Shown piece after piece: positions 21,001-27,000 of a DNA stretch of 33,304 nucleotides. A program made the position numbers. The stretch is taken from the IMG/VR virus record IMGVR_UViG_2778261316_000006; one strand, 5' to 3'. Positions within the stretch are counted from its first letter, which is position 1. Each line of letters starts with the position of its first letter. The stretch comes from a virus. Its lineage: Monodnaviria > Loebvirae > Hofneiviricota > Faserviricetes > Tubulavirales > Inoviridae.

Positions 21001-24000
21001 TAACAAGAGCCTGAGATACACGAATAATAATCTGGTCTTGCTTAGTGCCACCAAAACCATCAGGAATCTCTAAGCCAACACCAATTTCATTATAGTATCC
21101 CTGACCATTGACCTTATTACGCTGGCGAGCACCAAGCATTTTACCTTTTACAAAAAGACCATAATTAGACATATCACTCTCCTTTAATGCCAGTTACTGG
21201 CATGTGAAATACGGTTATAATCGAAAATTAAACCTTTCTCATAAACCCATGATGGAATTTTGGCTGGTTTGGCTTCAAGAGTACGAACCAACGGAACAAC
21301 GTTATTAGAATCCGGTGACTCACAATAAAAGTTAATATCTATTCCGAAAGAAAGTAATTCTTTACGGTGTCGGTAGAATGTAGGTTTCGGTAACATCTCT
21401 TTCATGTTCGCGCCCTGCTTCCACAATAAATATGTAGACTGTATTTTTCTTGGGAGATTAATTATTTTTTCATCAGTTAATATGGTATTTTGATTCATTT
21501 CTATTCTCCCTACATAGTCAGAGAATAATTTATTGGGCGTCTCAATATTCCAGCTATTACCAAGCGTAAGATTCAAATCAATTAATTCAGTTGTTCTTAA
21601 TGTTAATTCAATGCGTAATTTATCTTTTGACCAGTCCAGTAAACCAGCTTTAACGAATTCGTCTGCCATCTGGTGCCCTTTTTTGCCAGATGTATGCTCA
21701 TCATATTTTGAATAAAATTTCAGGCTCCAACGACGGGAGTTTTTCCCTAAGTAAACAGTGCCACCTTTACCACAGGCGCGACCGTGGCGAGTTTTAGCTT
21801 TAAATTCTGCGGCATATAACCATGCGCGGACATTTTCTAATGTTGACAATGAATACATGTAATTGATATCGATGCGCGAGATCTTAAATTGCCCTTCCAT
21901 GACCTGCCGATAGGATGGTAGATCATGAGGAATATGCAGTAATGCCAATATTCTGGCGTAAGCTGTTAACACCAACCCTTGCAAATCGTCGGAACCGATA
22001 ACAGAGTGACCTTGCAAAAACTTTGATGGATTACCGTCAATGTAGAGATGTGTTGCCCGACCTTCACCATCAGATCCAACAGACCTTACTTTCATTGTGG
22101 ACTCATGCGAACCGCGAACTGTCAACCGTTTTACTGTTTCCCACTCCACTGCACCGTCAGCATTGACGCTGACGACACTACCAGCCGGTAACGGTCGGTG
22201 TGTGCAAGGCAGGATTCCGGTAAACCAGTCGATCATAAGTAGTCACACCCATCAAAATATGTGTCAATAGTCATTTGTGAGCAGATTGAATGGTCACAAT
22301 GTAATATGCTCAGATCTGACAGTCAATACATTTGCAATGTTTAAATTGTCAGAAATGAGCATCAAATCTAACTATTGAAAAACCACTGTTAAGATGGAGC
22401 CAAGTAGATGGGCAACAATGAGCATGAAGTTATGGCGGACAAACAGAGAGCAGAACGTATCAAAAAGGTAATTCTGGAACACTCGACTTATGAAGAACTG
22501 GCCGAGAAGACTGGCATTAGCGTGAGTACGCTGGTCAGGATAGCGTCCGGCAAAACTGAACCTAAATTCAGTGACATCATTCAGATAGCTAAAATTACTG
22601 GTGCAGACTTAAACACCTTAGCTTATGGCTATGCTCTTGATGTTAAAGAAGAAGCTACCGAGCGGAAGCTAATCACTTCTGCGGATGGATATACTGATGA
22701 AGAAACCACTAACGCACATAATTTCATCGTGTGGAACATCAGGACACTGGAAAAACAAGATATTCTGGCACTCGCAAGGCAGGTTTCTGCCTTAAGTTCA
22801 TACACTTACAGTACTAAAATGTTTATGAAAAAAGCGGTGTCTGGAGAAGAGTAAAAGGATTAACAGTCTCAGGAATGAGACAAACGTGCAGTATTACCAA
22901 CACTGCACGTTCTTTATTGTGCGAATTTTGAACAGTGAAAAAGGATCAAAAGGATGAGTAGAAACAACGAAACAAGCGGCGTTGAACTGGTTGTCGTCGG
23001 CGTATTTGCTTTCTGTCTGGCAGTTGTTGCCTGGCTAATGAAAACTTTCGATGTTGAATGGCAAACAGCACTGGAAACTGCGCCTGGCCTGATAGTCTGG
23101 CTGCTTGTTGTCGGGGCGGGGATCTTTTTCGGGATCAAAATGGAAACAGGTCTTGTTCGCTGGGGTGCTCCACTGGCGATTGCCCTTCTGATTCCGGTAT
23201 TCAAACCAATCCTTAAGGAAGCTGCCGGAGTACGTGAAACGGGTGGATTGGTTTTCGATGATATGGTTTCGTGGTATGGAACTGGCTGGGGAATGTCGTT
23301 GATGTTTTTCGGAATTCTTATCATCGGATACGGGCTGCTTTATTGGTGGCACAGAAGAAATTCATATTACTGGTAATCAATAAAACGTAGAAGAGAGGAA
23401 ATATATGAAACTGAATCCTGAGAAATACAATAGAAATATCACCCTGCTATGTCCTGTGTGCGGAAATACAGAGATGGAACACGAGGAAGAGTCTGAAGTC
23501 GTCAGATGTGTAGGCTGCGGGAAAGAATTCACTAATGATGATTTAATCCAAGAAAACGGGGTGAGTATTGACGCCCATGTGGATGAGATAAAAGAAGAGT
23601 TAACAAAAGATATTCAAAAACAGTTTAATGATATGCTCAAAAAGGCATTTAAAGGAAGTAAAAATATAAGGATTAAATAATGACAACGAGTGATGCCATC
23701 GCTTTAGCTGCGCTTGTAGTATCGATTTACACTATCATATCATCAGAAGTGAAGTCGAGAAAAAGTGATAGAGAACAAAAGGTTATAAAGGATGAGCAAG
23801 ACAGGTTACGTAAGTTGCTTCTAGAAAAAGAAACAAAGTCAGCAATTAATGAGATGAAGGCTGAGCTTGGTGCCCGCCTCGTAAAAATAGCCAAAAACAA
23901 CTATAGACTCAAGATATTTAATAGAGGGAAAGTTGAGGCTAAAAATATAGAAATTCATTTCCCTGATAACGATGGCAATGAATATCTTTACATGCATGAT

Positions 24001-27000
24001 GTAGAAGATAAATTTCCATATGAAGTATTACACCCGCAACATGGGATTGAAATTTTAGCGGGACTAAGCTTTGGAAGTAAAACTAAATACCGAATAAAAC
24101 TTATATGGGATGACAATTATAAAAAAAGGAATGAAGAGGAGTTTTTCATTTCTATATAAATTGGTTCGCACAATGACGTTATGCTAAAGAGGCCGCTGCG
24201 GGATACGATTTTCGCAGCGGCCTTTTCAACATAACGAGTCGTACATTATGCGCACCAATGGTAAGGATGGCAGAATCTGGCGGGAATCGTTGACACTGGC
24301 CGTCAACTGGCTACTATCGACAGTGATTCAAAATCATCCGTTTCTCCAAACGAATCAGAATCAAATGTCTGTCAGCAGTAAGTGAACGGCCTGACCTCAC
24401 CAATCAGGCCTGTTCATCCAGTTAGTTGGTAAATCTGTACCTGATACACGAGAATCAAACACCACTTCTTCAGTGCCATCACCATGATGCCGGATAATCT
24501 GGTAACCGGATTGCGGGTTCTGGCTCTCAGCTTCATAAGCAGCCCGGAATGCTGGATCTTTGAGAAGCATCACTTTCAGCTCCTGATGTGTCATGAATTT
24601 TTCCATGATAAGCCCCGATGAATGCTGCCGCGCCGAATCAGCCATAACGCTGAAAATGGAAACTGTACGGCTTGGCCAACCCCGGACAGCAACAAAACAA
24701 GTTTTGTCACTGACCGGCGTTATCTTTCAAAACAGACAGTTAACGATTTTTTGTCTGGTGTTTATGCGTGAAATTTCGTACGTACGAAATTCACCACCAA
24801 TAAACAAACGGACGATGACTGACCGGAAAAGCAATGCCGTCAGCATCATGACCACGCATTACCTGATTGAGAAGCCTTCTGACTTCACGGCGCTCAGGCC
24901 TGGTCATCATCATATTGCGATACCAGGACGGCGATTTATCAAACCATCTGGCACAACTGGCAAAATGTGAACCTACACGACGATAAGACTTAAGGCGGCC
25001 ACCGGGAAGTCGGTCACGCGCCTTATTTTTTACAGACATAATAAATCCTCTAAGTAACTGAATACCTAGAAGATGTCGTACTGTTCATACCCCATAAAAG
25101 TTAACGCCATAATAAAAATCCATACAATCAGTTCAGGTTGTCCCGGAACAGTTCACCGCTCCTCGCGGCGCTGCGGGGCGTCGCCCTGCTCCGGTCAACC
25201 TTTCTGACCTGAAGCATCACCATAATATCAGTCTTGTTGCTTTCACTGGTACGGGAACCGAAGAAGCTCCAGCCGGAACTGGCCTTACTGTCTTTCTGTT
25301 CAGCAAGGCCACCAAGTAAAATAATATCACCATCTGCAAGGCTGACTTCGGTTGTTACATCACGCTTGATAAGGGTTGGCGAGTTATTGACGCCGGTTTC
25401 AGTGGTCACAAAGTTGGAAAGCTGCTGCTGAATCTTGAGATCCATTGTCCGACTTTTGATTGATGGCGTTACGTTAAACAAAACACCGCTGGAACGATAT
25501 TCAACGGATTGCGTGGTCGTATTGTTATTCACCGTAACACTGCCCAGTACTGGCACATCAGAGCCGACTGAAAAAGACGCTGAGGCATTATTTTTTACCC
25601 GCAGTCGTGGCGCACTGACAACAGTAAAACGACTGTCGGTTTTAAGCAGATTGAAAATGGCATCAATGGAGCCGGTTCGAATATTGATAAAATTATCCAG
25701 TCCGGCAGCACCAACTGAAATATTGAATTTATCAGACAGAATTTTAGCCGCTAAAAGAATGCCGGAGCCGTCAGACTGCGAGGTCTGAACCTCAAAAACA
25801 TAACCAGAAACAACCACTTCATCACTCATCGTATCCAGCGAAGTGACCAGTGTTTTCAGGATGGCGATATCCTCTTTCGTACCATAATAAACCAGAATAT
25901 CACCGGTTCGATTGATGTAGTTGCTTGCCCCTGATGAACCTTTTAGCGAATCGTCAGAAATCACGGCTCCACTGTTATTGAAGGAGCCTGAAACGTAGCC
26001 GCCAAGAATATCAGACAGGTAGGCAACAGAACGGTACTGAGGCGTATAAGTCCATGTATAACGTGGCTTAACCGGCTCTTTCGGCGTATAGGGCGCGATA
26101 AAATCAACACCCTTTTTCGTCCATATTCGAATGTTCATATTGCCAAGATAACGGGTTACAAATTCCCGTTCATCAATATCAGGTGTTAACCTGAATGTAA
26201 TCATTCGTTCATCATTAACAAGCTGTGGATCTAGCATATACGGGACTTTAAGCACCTCACTATAAATAAGAGAAATAGCCTCCGGTAGCTTGACTTTATT
26301 TAATTCAAGCTCTGACCCTGCGAAAGCACATGAAGAAAATAGTAGCGTTAATGCGAGTAAAATCTTTTTCATTATTTTTTCCCCGTATAAAGCGTCACAC
26401 GCTCACCATCAATAATTCCGCTCATCAACATCCCTTTGTAATTAAAACTGGATGCAGGAACGGCACGCAAAACACCGGCACCGTTAACAAGAATCACAAA
26501 CGCCCTGCCTTCACTGGTCATTCTCCCTGATATACGCCACTCGGTTGAAAGTGGCGGTTCAGCTGGTTCTGAGGGAGTATCTGGTGCTGGAGTAGCAGCG
26601 GAAGAACGAAACATGGCCGCATCACGTACATCTGTTGTAGCCAAATCTGGCGAGGGATCGCTTCGGCCAAACGTGCTGAAAAATGAGTAAATCAGCCAGC
26701 CTGACCCGATAAACATCAATGGAAAAAGCACAAGAAAGAACCTGACTTTGCCAGAATTCCAGATGCTCTGGCGTTTATCTGTCTGCTTTTCATTACCGTT
26801 ATTTCCTTCATAGCTTTTATAAAGTTCAAAAATATCAGGGTTATATTTATTGCGATAACTGGTGACGAGGTTGCTTTTATAGATTTTGTGGCCTGAATAT
26901 ACGTCAATGCAGTAATGATTATTCAGGCCCAACGCTTTCAGCTTGCGCATCCGGTAAGTTGTTTCTATTTTGTCTTTCAGAAAGCGAGCAATATTAGAAA

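What the first reader, a model, noticed from the sequence alone, without database searches (positions are those of the whole stretch)
22954..24159. Uncharacterised three-gene cargo operon in phage B: 4-TM membrane protein, zinc-ribbon protein, TM plus coiled-coil protein
Three plus-strand genes sit between the XRE regulator and the attP module, outside the conserved inovirus core and absent from phage A. Each has a plausible SD, and genes 2 and 3 are translationally coupled (TAATG overlap). None of the three resembles a protein family I recognise. Genes 2 and 3 are visibly more A+T-rich than gene 1 and the phage core, suggesting stepwise acquisition. The operon starts about 35 bp after an intrinsic terminator with no room for a canonical promoter, so expression may depend on terminator read-through from the repressor gene, which would couple it to the lysogenic state. 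A small membrane-associated module in this position could plausibly be a superinfection-exclusion, anti-phage defence or host-envelope-modifying system; this is the best candidate in the window for an undescribed system. Second copy at 32099..33304.
Basis: partly seen in the sequence, partly recalled or inferred. Interest (0 to 1): 0.85.

Follow-up and report, generated by a model that had tools for sequence, protein, structure and literature searches.

The report
Inovirus cargo slot with candidate defence pair
The "three-gene operon" is a conserved filamentous-phage membrane gene followed by an independent, widely distributed two-gene module (a zinc-ribbon protein plus a membrane-anchored protein) that sits in defence islands and on plasmids and is probably an untested anti-phage defence system.

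Summary
The three ORFs, their ribosome-binding sites, the TAATG overlap, the A+T-rich composition of genes 2 and 3, the upstream hairpin and the identical second copy are all real. They are not one triad.

Gene 1 (a 4-TM protein) is a fixed gene of dif-integrating Enterobacterales inoviruses. It occurs in 128 of 5,426 complete E. coli genomes and matches "h3" of UPφ phages. It marks the left edge of a sharply bounded cargo slot that ends at attP. At least 8 different cargos occupy this slot, including an AbiJ-like protein and a DpnII/MboI-type nuclease protein.

Genes 2 and 3 (matching "h4" and "h5"; 28 of 5,426 genomes) form an autonomous, translationally coupled pair.
- In 42 of 42 species-representative genomes, from Proteobacteria to Bacteroidota, a gene-2 homologue lies directly upstream of the gene-3 homologue. 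Only 2 of the 42 also have gene 1.
- The gene-3 family has about 1,270 clusters at 50% identity.
- Neighbours include type I R-M, Avs2, PARIS, Thoeris and CBASS genes. 85 of the 91 plasmids carrying the pair are conjugative.

Gene 3 is predicted as a TM helix, a coiled-coil stalk and a cytoplasmic Ig-like β-sandwich. It has no relative among known defence or solved-structure families. DefensePredictor lists a homologue as a "predicted novel defense gene"; it was not tested. Function remains inferred.

The parts
22408..22854 (+). XRE/RstR-like repressor gene (148 aa); context gene, not part of the shared cassette
   Evidence: Pfam HTH_3 at 1.6e-9 and phrog_3557 transcriptional regulator. Homology between the CUS-like and UPφ backbones begins just after its stop codon.
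22883..22911 (+). Terminator-like hairpin (10-bp stem, 9-nt loop, then UUCUUUAUU), preceded by a smaller hairpin at 22866-22881. Together with the 42-nt leader it belongs to the g1 module.
   Evidence: Fold energy of -22 kcal/mol for 22860-22925, z = -4.05. Sequence identical in ECONIH2 UPφ and UTI89 despite a different upstream regulator in ECONIH2.
22954..23376 (+). g1 (matches UPφ 'h3'): 140-aa inner-membrane protein with 4 TM helices. Conserved lysogeny-side inovirus gene and left border of the cargo slot.
   Evidence: phrog_4174 full-length match. Present in 128 of 5,426 E. coli genomes. Same position in UTI89, JA0266, M15, 8178, KE48, UID2309220036, TUM14759, ECONIH2 and Y. enterocolitica inoviruses, each with different downstream genes. 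AF2 gives helices 8-32, 36-62, 67-90 and 111-137 at pLDDT 65. No Pfam, NCBIfam, PADLOC or PDB relative.
23405..23680 (+). g2 (matches UPφ 'h4'): 91-aa cytoplasmic zinc-ribbon protein (CPxCG...CxxC) with a helical C-half and a near-invariant basic tail, AFKGSKNIRIK
   Evidence: NF047912 at 65.5 bits against cut-off 37. Alignment A2. Conservation holds across phyla. Found directly upstream of every g3 homologue, 42 of 42.
23680..24159 (+). g3 (matches UPφ 'h5'): 159-aa protein with an N-terminal TM helix, a long coiled-coil stalk and a C-terminal 7-stranded Ig-like β-sandwich, inferred to be cytoplasmic
24163..24256 (.). attP: dif-like site 1 (24163-24189), a 17-bp hairpin (24187-24226) and inverted dif-like site 2 (24229-24256). 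Right border of the cargo slot, starting 4 nt after the g3 stop.
   Evidence: Match to E. coli dif. Fold z = -7.67. All cargo variants converge exactly here. The core is also found at the end of ISNCY passenger units on plasmids.
32099..32521 (+). g1, second tandem phage B copy
   Evidence: Identical to copy 1; ORF list.
32550..32825 (+). g2, second copy
   Evidence: Identical to copy 1.
32825..33304 (+). g3, second copy; ends at the window edge
   Evidence: Identical to copy 1.

Best explanation
The stretch holds two separate things. (A) g1 is a conserved 4-TM inner-membrane protein of the lysogeny-side module of dif-integrating Enterobacterales inoviruses (CUSφ-like and UPφ). Its stop codon and the phage attP delimit a cargo hotspot in which unrelated gene sets are exchanged. 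(B) In this phage the slot is filled by g2-g3, an autonomous, translationally coupled two-gene module that moves between inoviruses, an ISNCY-type element, conjugative plasmids and chromosomal defence islands. My preferred reading is that g2-g3 is an anti-phage (abortive-infection or exclusion type) defence module, expressed from the lysogenic strand as a 'moron'. Shown: pair autonomy, distribution, genomic context and predicted architecture. Inferred mechanism: g3 is anchored N-out/C-in and oligomerises through its coiled-coil stalk. The zinc-ribbon protein g2 docks on g3's cytoplasmic Ig-like domain, possibly through its invariant basic tail, and acts as sensor or brake. An infection cue that perturbs g2 lets the g3 TM helices compromise the membrane or block DNA entry or assembly. 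This is analogous to small membrane effectors such as Csx23. g1 itself is most simply a lysogeny-associated membrane function such as superinfection exclusion; that is an inference held with low confidence.
For: Pair autonomy. 42 of 42 g3-family loci in species-representative genomes have a g2-family ORF directly upstream on the same strand, and 39 of 42 gene junctions overlap or lie <= 5 nt apart. Only 2 of 42 carry g1, and both of those are inoviruses. Pairs at 36-72% identity were confirmed in Klebsiella plasmids, Serratia, Proteus, Agarivorans, Cupriavidus and a Phage_GPA-type inovirus. Slot behaviour. g1 is in 128 E. coli genomes against 28 for g2-g3. At least 8 alternative cargos were seen, with sharp boundaries at both ends. 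Two alternatives are defence-type: AbiJ_NTD4+DUF7014, also PADLOC PDC-S32, and a DpnII/MboI REase-domain protein, also PADLOC Aga_Helical-REase and PDC-S35. Defence context of the pair. Individual loci show CBASS, AIPR and HNH; a SIR2-STAND protein with type I R-M and AAA_13; type I R-M with Mrr; a NACHT protein; and DUF4238. A tally of 149 nearest neighbours from 32 loci includes type I R-M, Avs2 (1e-255), AriA/PARIS, PD-Lambda-3, ThsB-TIR, SLATT, AGS_C, MADS genes and integrases. 85 of 91 plasmids carrying g3 relatives are conjugative. Independent support. DefensePredictor Table S10 lists the IncF g3 homologue WP_001610303.1 (log-odds 5.9) and the adjacent third gene (5.4) as predicted novel defence genes (PMC13092281). 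Architecture. The g3 model has pLDDT 84. No enzyme fold was found. Motifs are invariant across phyla.
Against: There is no experimental evidence of any phenotype. The pair was not among the units tested or validated by DefensePredictor. The neighbour tally has no matched control, and the tool reports only the 25 most frequent families. Some contexts show no defence genes: Agarivorans, and next to ParAB in Cupriavidus. g3 and g1 have no PADLOC hit. g2's PADLOC hits (PDC-S64 at 4.8e-7, HEC-08, PDC-M14A) cover only a generic zinc-ribbon. The g2-g3 contact and the membrane-damage step are pure inference, because no multimer modelling was available. The g1 model has low confidence (pLDDT 65), and nothing bears directly on its function.
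Confidence: 0.55

Rival explanations
1. g2-g3 is a toxin-antitoxin or addiction module that stabilises whichever mobile element carries it. g3 would be the membrane toxin and g2 the upstream, translationally coupled antitoxin. There would be no dedicated anti-phage role.
For: Two small, tightly coupled genes with the smaller one first. The pair sits on conjugative plasmids beside TacAT, ParDE and RelE/ParE modules and next to ParAB. It rides as an IS passenger. g2 shows weak zinc-ribbon similarity to the MqsA/YgiT antitoxin finger (TIGR03830 at 1.3e-3). The g3 N-terminus weakly resembles a holin PHROG (E = 0.006).
Against: The MqsA match is far below its cut-off (18.5 against 61.8 bits), and g2 has no HTH. 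The conserved 85-aa Ig-like domain and stalk in g3 are more than a pore-forming peptide needs. The pair clusters with R-M, Avs, CBASS and Thoeris genes, not only with plasmid maintenance genes. TA and abortive-infection roles are not mutually exclusive.
Confidence: 0.2
2. g2-g3 is an inter-element competition device rather than a general defence system. It would exclude rival filamentous phages or plasmids at the inner membrane.
For: The pair recurs in at least three inovirus backbones: CUS-like, UPφ and Phage_GPA-type. It is also common on conjugative plasmids, whose pili are receptors for Ff-, If1- and IKe-type phages (established knowledge). It is absent from 50,697 deposited phage genomes by tblastn with g2. 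These prophages sit in mixed tandem arrays in which co-resident inoviruses compete.
Against: Most representative-genome occurrences (40 of 42) are not in inoviruses, and many hosts are environmental bacteria. The predicted cytoplasmic orientation of the g3 domain does not suit blocking periplasmic TolA or pilus steps (inference).
Confidence: 0.1
3. The genes are a virulence or host-fitness cargo, the inovirus counterpart of ctxAB, that modifies the host envelope during infection of animals.
For: The position matches that of accessory and virulence genes in CTXφ, YpfΦ and CUS-1 (PMC4266046; PMC7307601). Carriers are often ExPEC or urinary isolates. The IncF homologues lie near iss on APEC plasmids.
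Against: Family members occur in Variovorax, Cupriavidus, Caulobacter, Mesorhizobium, Bacteroidales and marine bacteria. There is no signal peptide or secreted domain, and the conserved domain is predicted to be cytoplasmic.
Confidence: 0.07
4. One reading: g1, g2 and g3 together form one three-component membrane system.
For: They are co-directional with only 28 nt between g1 and g2 and no intervening terminator or promoter, so they are co-transcribed here. The identical g1-g2-g3 cassette is shared by CUS-like and UPφ phages.
Against: 40 of 42 pairs lack g1. About 100 E. coli genomes have g1 without the pair. UPφ counts are h3 221, h4 56 and h5 57 of 229. G+C is 47.8% for g1 against about 35% for g2 and g3.
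Confidence: 0.04

Closest known systems
UPφ accessory ORFs h3-h5, and the CUS-1 orf1/orf1a and YpfΦ YPO2271/2272 region (Shapiro & Putonti 2020, PMC7307601; Derbise & Carniel 2014, PMC4266046)
   Same: Same locus type: dif-adjacent ORFs on the strand opposite the morphogenesis genes. ECONIH2, a strain discussed in that paper, carries proteins with the same RefSeq accessions as the CUS-like prophage of SF-173 (g1 WP_001399819.1, g2 WP_021560812.1), and its DNA is 100% identical to the window over g2-g3. The reported frequencies (h3 221, h4 56, h5 57 of 229) mirror mine (128 against 28 genomes).
   Different: Those papers leave the genes as 'no homologs, unknown function'. They do not note that h4-h5 is a phylogenetically broad, obligately paired module found outside phages, nor that the slot holds defence-type genes. 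The h3/h4/h5 to g1/g2/g3 assignment is inferred from the text, because the figure is not held.
Defence hotspots of P2-like phages and P4-like satellites (Rousset et al. 2022, PMC9122126)
   Same: Conserved flanking phage features (g1 on the left, attP on the right) enclose a slot with many mutually exclusive gene sets, some recognisably defensive (AbiJ-like, REase-domain). The genes are carried on the lysogenic side of a prophage.
   Different: The host element is a roughly 9-kb XerCD-integrating filamentous phage, not a tailed phage or satellite. The right border is the Xer attP itself, and the same cargos plus the attP core also appear as passengers of an ISNCY-type element. No cargo has been tested experimentally.
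Csx23, a type III CRISPR membrane effector (Grüschow et al. 2024, PMC11014256)
   Same: A working analogy only. Csx23 is a small protein with an N-terminal TM anchor and a cytoplasmic sensor domain, it oligomerises, and ligand binding perturbs the TM region to abort infection. DefensePredictor's HHblits annotation gave Csx23 as a remote hit for a g3 homologue (probability 64.7, 16% coverage).
   Different: Csx23 contributes two TM helices per protomer and has a β-grasp (PB1-like) C-terminal domain that binds cA4. g3 has one TM helix, a roughly 35-residue stalk and a 7-stranded Ig-like sandwich. No CRISPR or cyclase partner was seen. The obligate partner is a zinc-ribbon protein.
Accessory defence and TA modules of Pseudomonas Pf inoviruses (KKP, PMC11341870; PfiT/PfiA, PMC12328805)
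   Same: Filamentous prophages that carry small accessory modules near the regulatory end, which control co-resident phages and defend against lytic phages.
   Different: The proteins are unrelated (kinase/phosphatase or classical TA). Pf phages integrate with their own integrase at tRNA genes, not at dif by XerCD.
Kiwa (KwaA 4-TM protein plus KwaB)
   Same: A membrane-associated multi-gene defence system with a small 4-TM component, which is what the triad superficially resembles.
   Different: No PADLOC KwaA or KwaB hit for g1 or g3, and no DUF4868. g1 is not linked to the pair.

Membership tests
NCBIfam NF047912 ECs_2282 family putative zinc-binding protein (g2) | Score above the curated cut-off over the 60-residue CxxC...CxxC domain | tested here: met
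   65.5 bits against a cut-off of 37, profile positions 1-60 of 60. RefSeq annotates the same gene with this name.
UPφ accessory ORFs h3/h4/h5 | Three ORFs next to dif, oriented opposite to the core genes. The dif-distal one is near-universal and the other two occur in about a quarter of prophages. All are present in ECONIH2 copies 1 and 2. | tested here: met
   ECONIH2 (L072) has g1, g2 and g3 in two of its tandem UPφ copies, with g2-g3 DNA 100% identical to the window and g1/g2 accessions shared with the CUS-like prophage of SF-173. Frequencies come from the paper. The label-to-gene mapping is inferred from the text.
Any defence system or candidate in PADLOC-DB v2.0.0 | Significant HMM match of the system-specific proteins | tested here: not met
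   g1 and g3 have 0 families at E <= 1. g2 has only zinc-ribbon-local hits: PDC-S64 at 4.8e-7 (residues 195-253 of 339), HEC-08 and PDC-M14A.
Kiwa | KwaA multi-TM protein together with KwaB (DUF4868) | tested here: not met
   No PADLOC or Pfam hit. g1 is unlinked to g2-g3.
MqsA/YgiT-type zinc-ribbon antitoxin (type II TA) | CxxCG-CxxCG finger plus a C-terminal HTH; score at or above the TIGR03830 cut-off | tested here: not met
   18.5 bits against 61.8, no HTH region.
Csx23 | Two-TM N-domain, β-grasp cA4-binding C-terminal domain, association with type III CRISPR | tested here: not met
Holin | Small TM protein encoded beside an endolysin or spanin; family HMM match | tested here: inconclusive
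   phrog_1350 at E = 0.0059 over residues 1-63 only. No lysis genes are adjacent in any context inspected.
   No Pfam, NCBIfam or PDB match for g1 or g3. The core genes of phage B are all accounted for elsewhere.
Prophage-encoded defence hotspot (in the sense of the P2/P4 hotspots) | Conserved flanks, many alternative gene sets, and recognisable defence genes among them | tested here: met
   Flanks are identical to the base. At least 8 cargos were seen. An AbiJ-like protein and a REase-domain protein are among them. Actual defence activity of any cargo was not tested.
Defence-island resident gene (guilt by association) | Recurrent proximity to diverse known defence systems in unrelated genomes | tested here: met
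   This is qualitative: no matched background control was run.

The most novel reading that the evidence does not exclude
g2-g3, with an optional third gene of roughly 125-170 aa, is a new and widespread family of membrane-anchored anti-phage defence systems (about 1,270 clusters at 50% identity across several phyla). In it, a zinc-ribbon sensor controls a TM, coiled-coil and Ig-like effector unrelated to any described system. In addition, dif-integrating inoviruses of Enterobacterales and an ISNCY-type element share a passenger slot, bounded on one side by a Xer-site-like sequence, that shuttles such defence cargo between phages, plasmids and chromosomes.
Probability: 0.35. Interest if true: 0.72.

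Novelty: new variant of a known kind. Interest (0 to 1): 0.6.

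Why it matters
If the pair is defensive, it adds a mechanistically unexplored family with no nuclease, NTPase or cyclase. It consists only of a zinc ribbon and a membrane-tethered Ig-like domain, yet it has a broad host range, and it is small enough (755 bp) to test easily. 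The finding would also show that small filamentous prophages at the chromosome terminus act as defence hotspots in pathogenic E. coli, comparable to P2/P4 hotspots. The cargo would be exchangeable with IncF virulence plasmids through an IS-borne passenger slot that ends in the phage's own Xer attachment sequence. This bears on how ExPEC and APEC lineages acquire phage resistance, which is relevant to phage therapy. It also offers a rationale for the long-unexplained accessory regions of CUS-1, YpfΦ and UPφ phages.

Tried and rejected
- **Nucleotide and protein searches of deposited phages.** No blastn match for the region and no tblastn match for g2. The PHROG hits must therefore come from prophage-derived members.
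- **Family scans of g1 and g3.** Pfam, NCBIfam and PADLOC gave nothing.
- **Profile searches of PDB sequences.** No relative for g1 or g3; only generic zinc ribbons for g2 (eS27, aIF2β, TFIIE).
- **g1 structure.** pLDDT was 65, so no fold search was attempted.
- **'Third gene' in the 42 representative-genome loci.** A profile built from three sequences found none, so the gene is optional or too divergent.
- **Csx23 lead from DefensePredictor.** Rejected because the fold and TM number differ.
- **Kiwa, MqsA and holin readings.** Rejected or left inconclusive; see the membership table.
- **The triad as a single system.** Rejected on co-occurrence.
- **Literature searches.** Searches for ECs_2282, the PHROG ids and the WP accessions found nothing. 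General searches for such a pair found no description.
- **DefensePredictor tables.** The tables of tested units (S6) and validated systems (S8) contain neither the accessions searched nor, for S8, the pair's motifs.

Full report
**Setting**

The window is an E. coli chromosome segment at the dif/hipBA terminus locus. It holds a mixed tandem array of filamentous prophages. There are two copies of "phage A" (spacing 7,698 bp) followed by two copies of "phage B" (spacing 9,145 bp, 4 mismatches between copies). Near-identical arrays occur in strains such as SF-173, whose phage B is annotated with Rep (II/X family), ssDNA-binding protein, DUF2523, Zot-like protein and secretin. Phage B is a CUS-1/CUSφ-like inovirus. 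UTI89, an O18:K1:H7 strain of the type in which CUS-1 was described, carries the same backbone (PMC4266046).

**Observation**

- The ORFs are at 22954-23376, 23405-23680 and 23680-24159.
- g2 and g3 overlap as TAATG, and each gene has an SD-like motif.
- G+C is 47.8% (g1), 35.9% (g2) and 34.6% (g3), against 41.9% for the phage.
- The second copy is identical at 1206 of 1206 bases.
- A hairpin at 22883-22911 is followed by a U-rich tract (z = -4.05), and no sigma-70-like promoter lies between it and g1.
- Phage A lacks the three genes.
- Immediately after g3 lies the attP. It consists of a dif-like site (24163-24189), a 17-bp hairpin and an inverted dif-like site (24229-24256). The structure folds strongly as a single strand (z = -7.67), as expected for XerCD-integrating inoviruses.

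**The triad falls apart into 1 + 2**

*Evidence within E. coli.* In UTI89, JA0266, M15, 8178, KE48, UID2309220036 and the 9.6-kb episomal form in TUM14759, the regulator and g1 are retained but the genes after g1 differ. The alternatives are:
- a 369-aa TM protein;
- an STM4504/CBY_0614 protein;
- a 264-aa protein plus a DUF6953 protein;
- an 89-aa plus a 240-aa protein;
- a 155-aa plus a 123-aa protein;
- a roughly 270-aa protein.

A Yersinia enterocolitica Ff-like inovirus also has g1, followed by ORFs of 54, 105 and 257 aa. Across 5,426 complete E. coli genomes, g1 is found in 128 and g2-g3 in 28.

*Slot boundaries.* Alignments show the slot is bounded to the base. On the left, homology between the CUS-like and UPφ backbones begins at the regulator's stop codon and includes the hairpin, the leader and g1. 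On the right, all cargo variants converge at the first dif-like site of attP.

*Match to the literature.* This pattern matches the UPφ paper. It describes three ORFs next to dif, with h3 in 221 of 229 prophages and h4 and h5 in 56 and 57 (PMC7307601). ECONIH2, a strain that paper discusses, carries g2-g3 DNA 100% identical to the window in two of its tandem UPφ copies. Its g1 and g2 have the same RefSeq accessions as in SF-173's CUS-like prophage. The ORFs have therefore been seen before, but were reported as having no homologues and no known function.

**g2-g3 is an autonomous, broadly distributed pair**

*Individual contexts.* g3 homologues, consistently 150-160 aa, were first found across Enterobacterales. 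Their genomic contexts showed a g2 homologue abutting them without g1 and outside inoviruses. Examples include Klebsiella plasmids, a Serratia island, a distant pair next to a SIR2-STAND protein and type I R-M, a Proteus AlpA/DUF3987 island behind type I R-M and Mrr, Agarivorans, and Cupriavidus plasmids.

*Family size.* A profile search of 1.84 billion representatives found 1,274 family members at E <= 1e-3 and 471 at <= 1e-10. Nearly all of the best 150 listed are 145-165 aa and match over their full length.

*Co-occurrence test.* A scan of one genome per species returned 42 loci from Gamma-, Beta- and Alphaproteobacteria, Bacteroidota, Desulfobulbus and Coriobacteriia.
- In 42 of 42 loci a g2-family ORF lies directly upstream on the same strand.
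- 39 of 42 junctions overlap or are <= 5 nt apart.
- Only 2 of 42 loci have g1, and those two also have inovirus Rep and secretin.

*Conserved motifs.* Motifs are conserved across phyla. In g2 they are the two Cys pairs, "ELIxxNxExI" and the basic tail "KxAFxGxKxIxxK". In g3 they are a TM "AL", "LxKE", "rlKxxNxGkxxAxN", "KFP" and "WxD".

*Other inoviruses and a third gene.* The pair also occurs in a third, unrelated inovirus lineage with a Phage_GPA-type Rep. There it sits directly after an RHH regulator. An optional third gene follows the pair on E. coli and Klebsiella plasmids (123-127 aa) and in that inovirus (166 aa). These third genes are homologous to one another. In the window, attP starts 4 nt after g3, so there is no third gene.

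**What the proteins look like**

- **g2.** It is a rubredoxin-type zinc ribbon plus a helix and reaches the ECs_2282 NCBIfam cut-off. All other similarities are generic zinc ribbons.
- **g1.** It has four predicted TM helices and a conserved "WYGTGWGM" segment, but the model is poor (pLDDT 65) and no relative exists in any library.

**Why defence is the best reading for the pair**

1. **Neighbourhoods.** Individual loci place the pair beside CBASS, AIPR, a SIR2-STAND protein, type I R-M, Mrr, a NACHT protein and DUF4238. A tally of the 149 nearest ORFs from 32 non-redundant loci includes type I R-M subunits, Avs2 (E = 1e-255), AriA/PARIS-type ATPases, PD-Lambda-3, ThsB-TIR, SLATT, AGS_C, MADS genes and integrases. 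No matched control was run, so this is qualitative.
2. **Slot-mates.** The same inovirus slot holds an AbiJ_NTD4+DUF7014 protein (PADLOC PDC-S32) and a DpnII/MboI REase-domain protein (PADLOC Aga_Helical-REase at 1e-34, and PDC-S35).
3. **Carriers.** 85 of 91 plasmids with g3 relatives are conjugative. g2 gave no tblastn match in 50,697 deposited phage genomes.
4. **Independent prediction.** DefensePredictor (Science 2026) lists the IncF g3 homologue (log-odds 5.9) and the third gene (5.4) among "predicted novel defense genes". Both exceed its strict threshold of 4. Neither appears among the tested or validated units (PMC13092281).

The mechanism I commit to is inference, with Csx23 as a functional analogy rather than a relative. 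g3 would oligomerise at the membrane. g2 would dock on g3's Ig-like domain through its invariant tail and act as sensor or brake. Membrane damage or entry block would follow on triggering.

**Rivals**

A TA or addiction role is the strongest rival and is not exclusive of an Abi role. Exclusion of rival inoviruses or plasmids is a narrower variant of the defence reading. A virulence role fits the locus tradition but not the environmental distribution or the cytoplasmic topology. The single-triad model is refuted by co-occurrence.

**Expression**

Only 28 nt separate g1 and g2, with no hairpin between them. In this phage g2-g3 are therefore co-transcribed with g1. Whether g1 transcription starts by read-through of the 22883-22911 hairpin cannot be decided here. 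The hairpin and leader travel with g1 behind two different regulators, XRE in CUS-like phages and a 60-aa RHH-like protein in UPφ. That makes the hairpin and leader part of the g1 module.

**Unexpected side result**

- Hundreds of E. coli records, many of them plasmids, match only about 72 bp at window 24162-24233.
- On one such IncF plasmid inspected, that attP core lies directly after an STM4504/AbiJ-like gene, which in turn lies directly after an ISNCY-family transposase gene.
- The same transposase (69-94% amino-acid identity) sits immediately upstream of divergent versions of the g2-g3 pair in E. coli IncF plasmids, Klebsiella plasmids and Serratia.
- In Klebsiella the whole 2.9-kb block is shared between plasmids with unrelated flanks. 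It runs from the IS left end through the transposase gene, g2, g3 and the third gene to an attP-like right end of about 130 nt.
- The same transposase and the same right-end sequence also bracket an ASCH-domain gene.

The inovirus slot and an IS passenger slot therefore share both cargo and a Xer-site-like terminal sequence. The direction and mechanism of exchange are unknown.

**Verdict**

What is really there is a conserved inovirus membrane gene bordering a cargo hotspot, currently occupied by a mobile zinc-ribbon plus membrane-anchored pair. The pair is a credible, still unvalidated anti-phage system unrelated to described families.

Noticed in passing
window 24162-24233; L008 6116-9028; L005 6117-9029 and 12915-15117; L024 5103-8015; L073 1-2632: An ISNCY-family element carries a variable passenger slot. 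Its cargos (the g2-g3 pair plus a third gene, an STM4504/AbiJ-like gene, an ASCH protein) and its roughly 130-nt right end, which contains the first ~74 nt of the inovirus attP, are shared with the inovirus cargo slot. This likely explains the hundreds of E. coli records, many of them plasmids, that match only this 72-bp piece.
   Followed up: partly
L003 10085-11194 (UTI89) and L023 9006-9565 plus 1-253 (TUM14759 episome): The CUS-1-type slot cargo (369 aa) has an N-terminal TM helix and a β-sandwich-like segment. That segment weakly matches the g3 profile (14 bits, profile columns 78-132). The 270-aa TUM14759 cargo is its homologue (25% identity, E = 1e-22). Several slot cargos may therefore share a 'membrane-anchored β-sandwich' design.
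   Followed up: partly
L019 3491-4562 (E. coli M15): Another occupant of the slot is a 264-aa DpnII/MboI REase-domain protein (Pfam 7e-59; PADLOC Aga_Helical-REase 1e-34; PDC-S35 at the N-terminus), followed by a DUF6953 protein.
   Followed up: partly
L006 8517-8900; L024 7511-7882; L028 6464-6964: An optional third gene follows the pair on plasmids (123-127 aa) and in a Phage_GPA-type inovirus (166 aa). The versions are homologous to one another and have no Pfam or PADLOC hit. DefensePredictor scores the IncF version as a predicted defence gene (log-odds 5.4). It is absent from the window.
   Followed up: partly
window 1-15021 (phage A, two copies) and 6613-7313: Phage A is a different inovirus sharing the dif array with phage B. 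Its lysogeny side has a 78-aa RHH-like regulator and an 88-aa ORF with no family hit, instead of XRE and g1. The regulator resembles those of UPφ (EC5502), the Y. enterocolitica inovirus and the inovirus at L028.
   Followed up: partly
window 22853-24260 compared with L072 (ECONIH2) and L001 (SF-173): The whole leader-g1-g2-g3-attP cassette is shared between two otherwise different inovirus backbones, CUS-like and UPφ/IKe-like. The g1 and g2 RefSeq accessions are the same in ECONIH2 and SF-173, and the g2-g3 DNA is 100% identical to the window. This implies recent recombination between co-resident prophages in dif arrays.
   Followed up: yes
L030 (record labelled Candidatus Nanosynbacter MAG) and L056 (record labelled Methanoculleus MAG): Contigs assigned to a Saccharibacteria MAG and to an archaeal MAG carry the enterobacterial inovirus cassette (97% identity) and a proteobacterial-type pair, respectively. 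These are most likely mis-binned contigs.
   Followed up: no
L002 (E. coli EC5502, NZ_CP092647.1): This genome has 16 places matching the cassette, with many frameshifted phage genes. It is either a very long tandem UPφ array or long-read assembly errors.
   Followed up: no
L015/L016 9001-9411 (Mixta intestinalis): A lone g1 homologue (51% identity) sits among genes that also neighbour the dif-region prophage in the E. coli and Y. enterocolitica loci (glutaminase, DUF1283). No inovirus core genes were called nearby. It is probably a prophage remnant that retained only g1.
   Followed up: no
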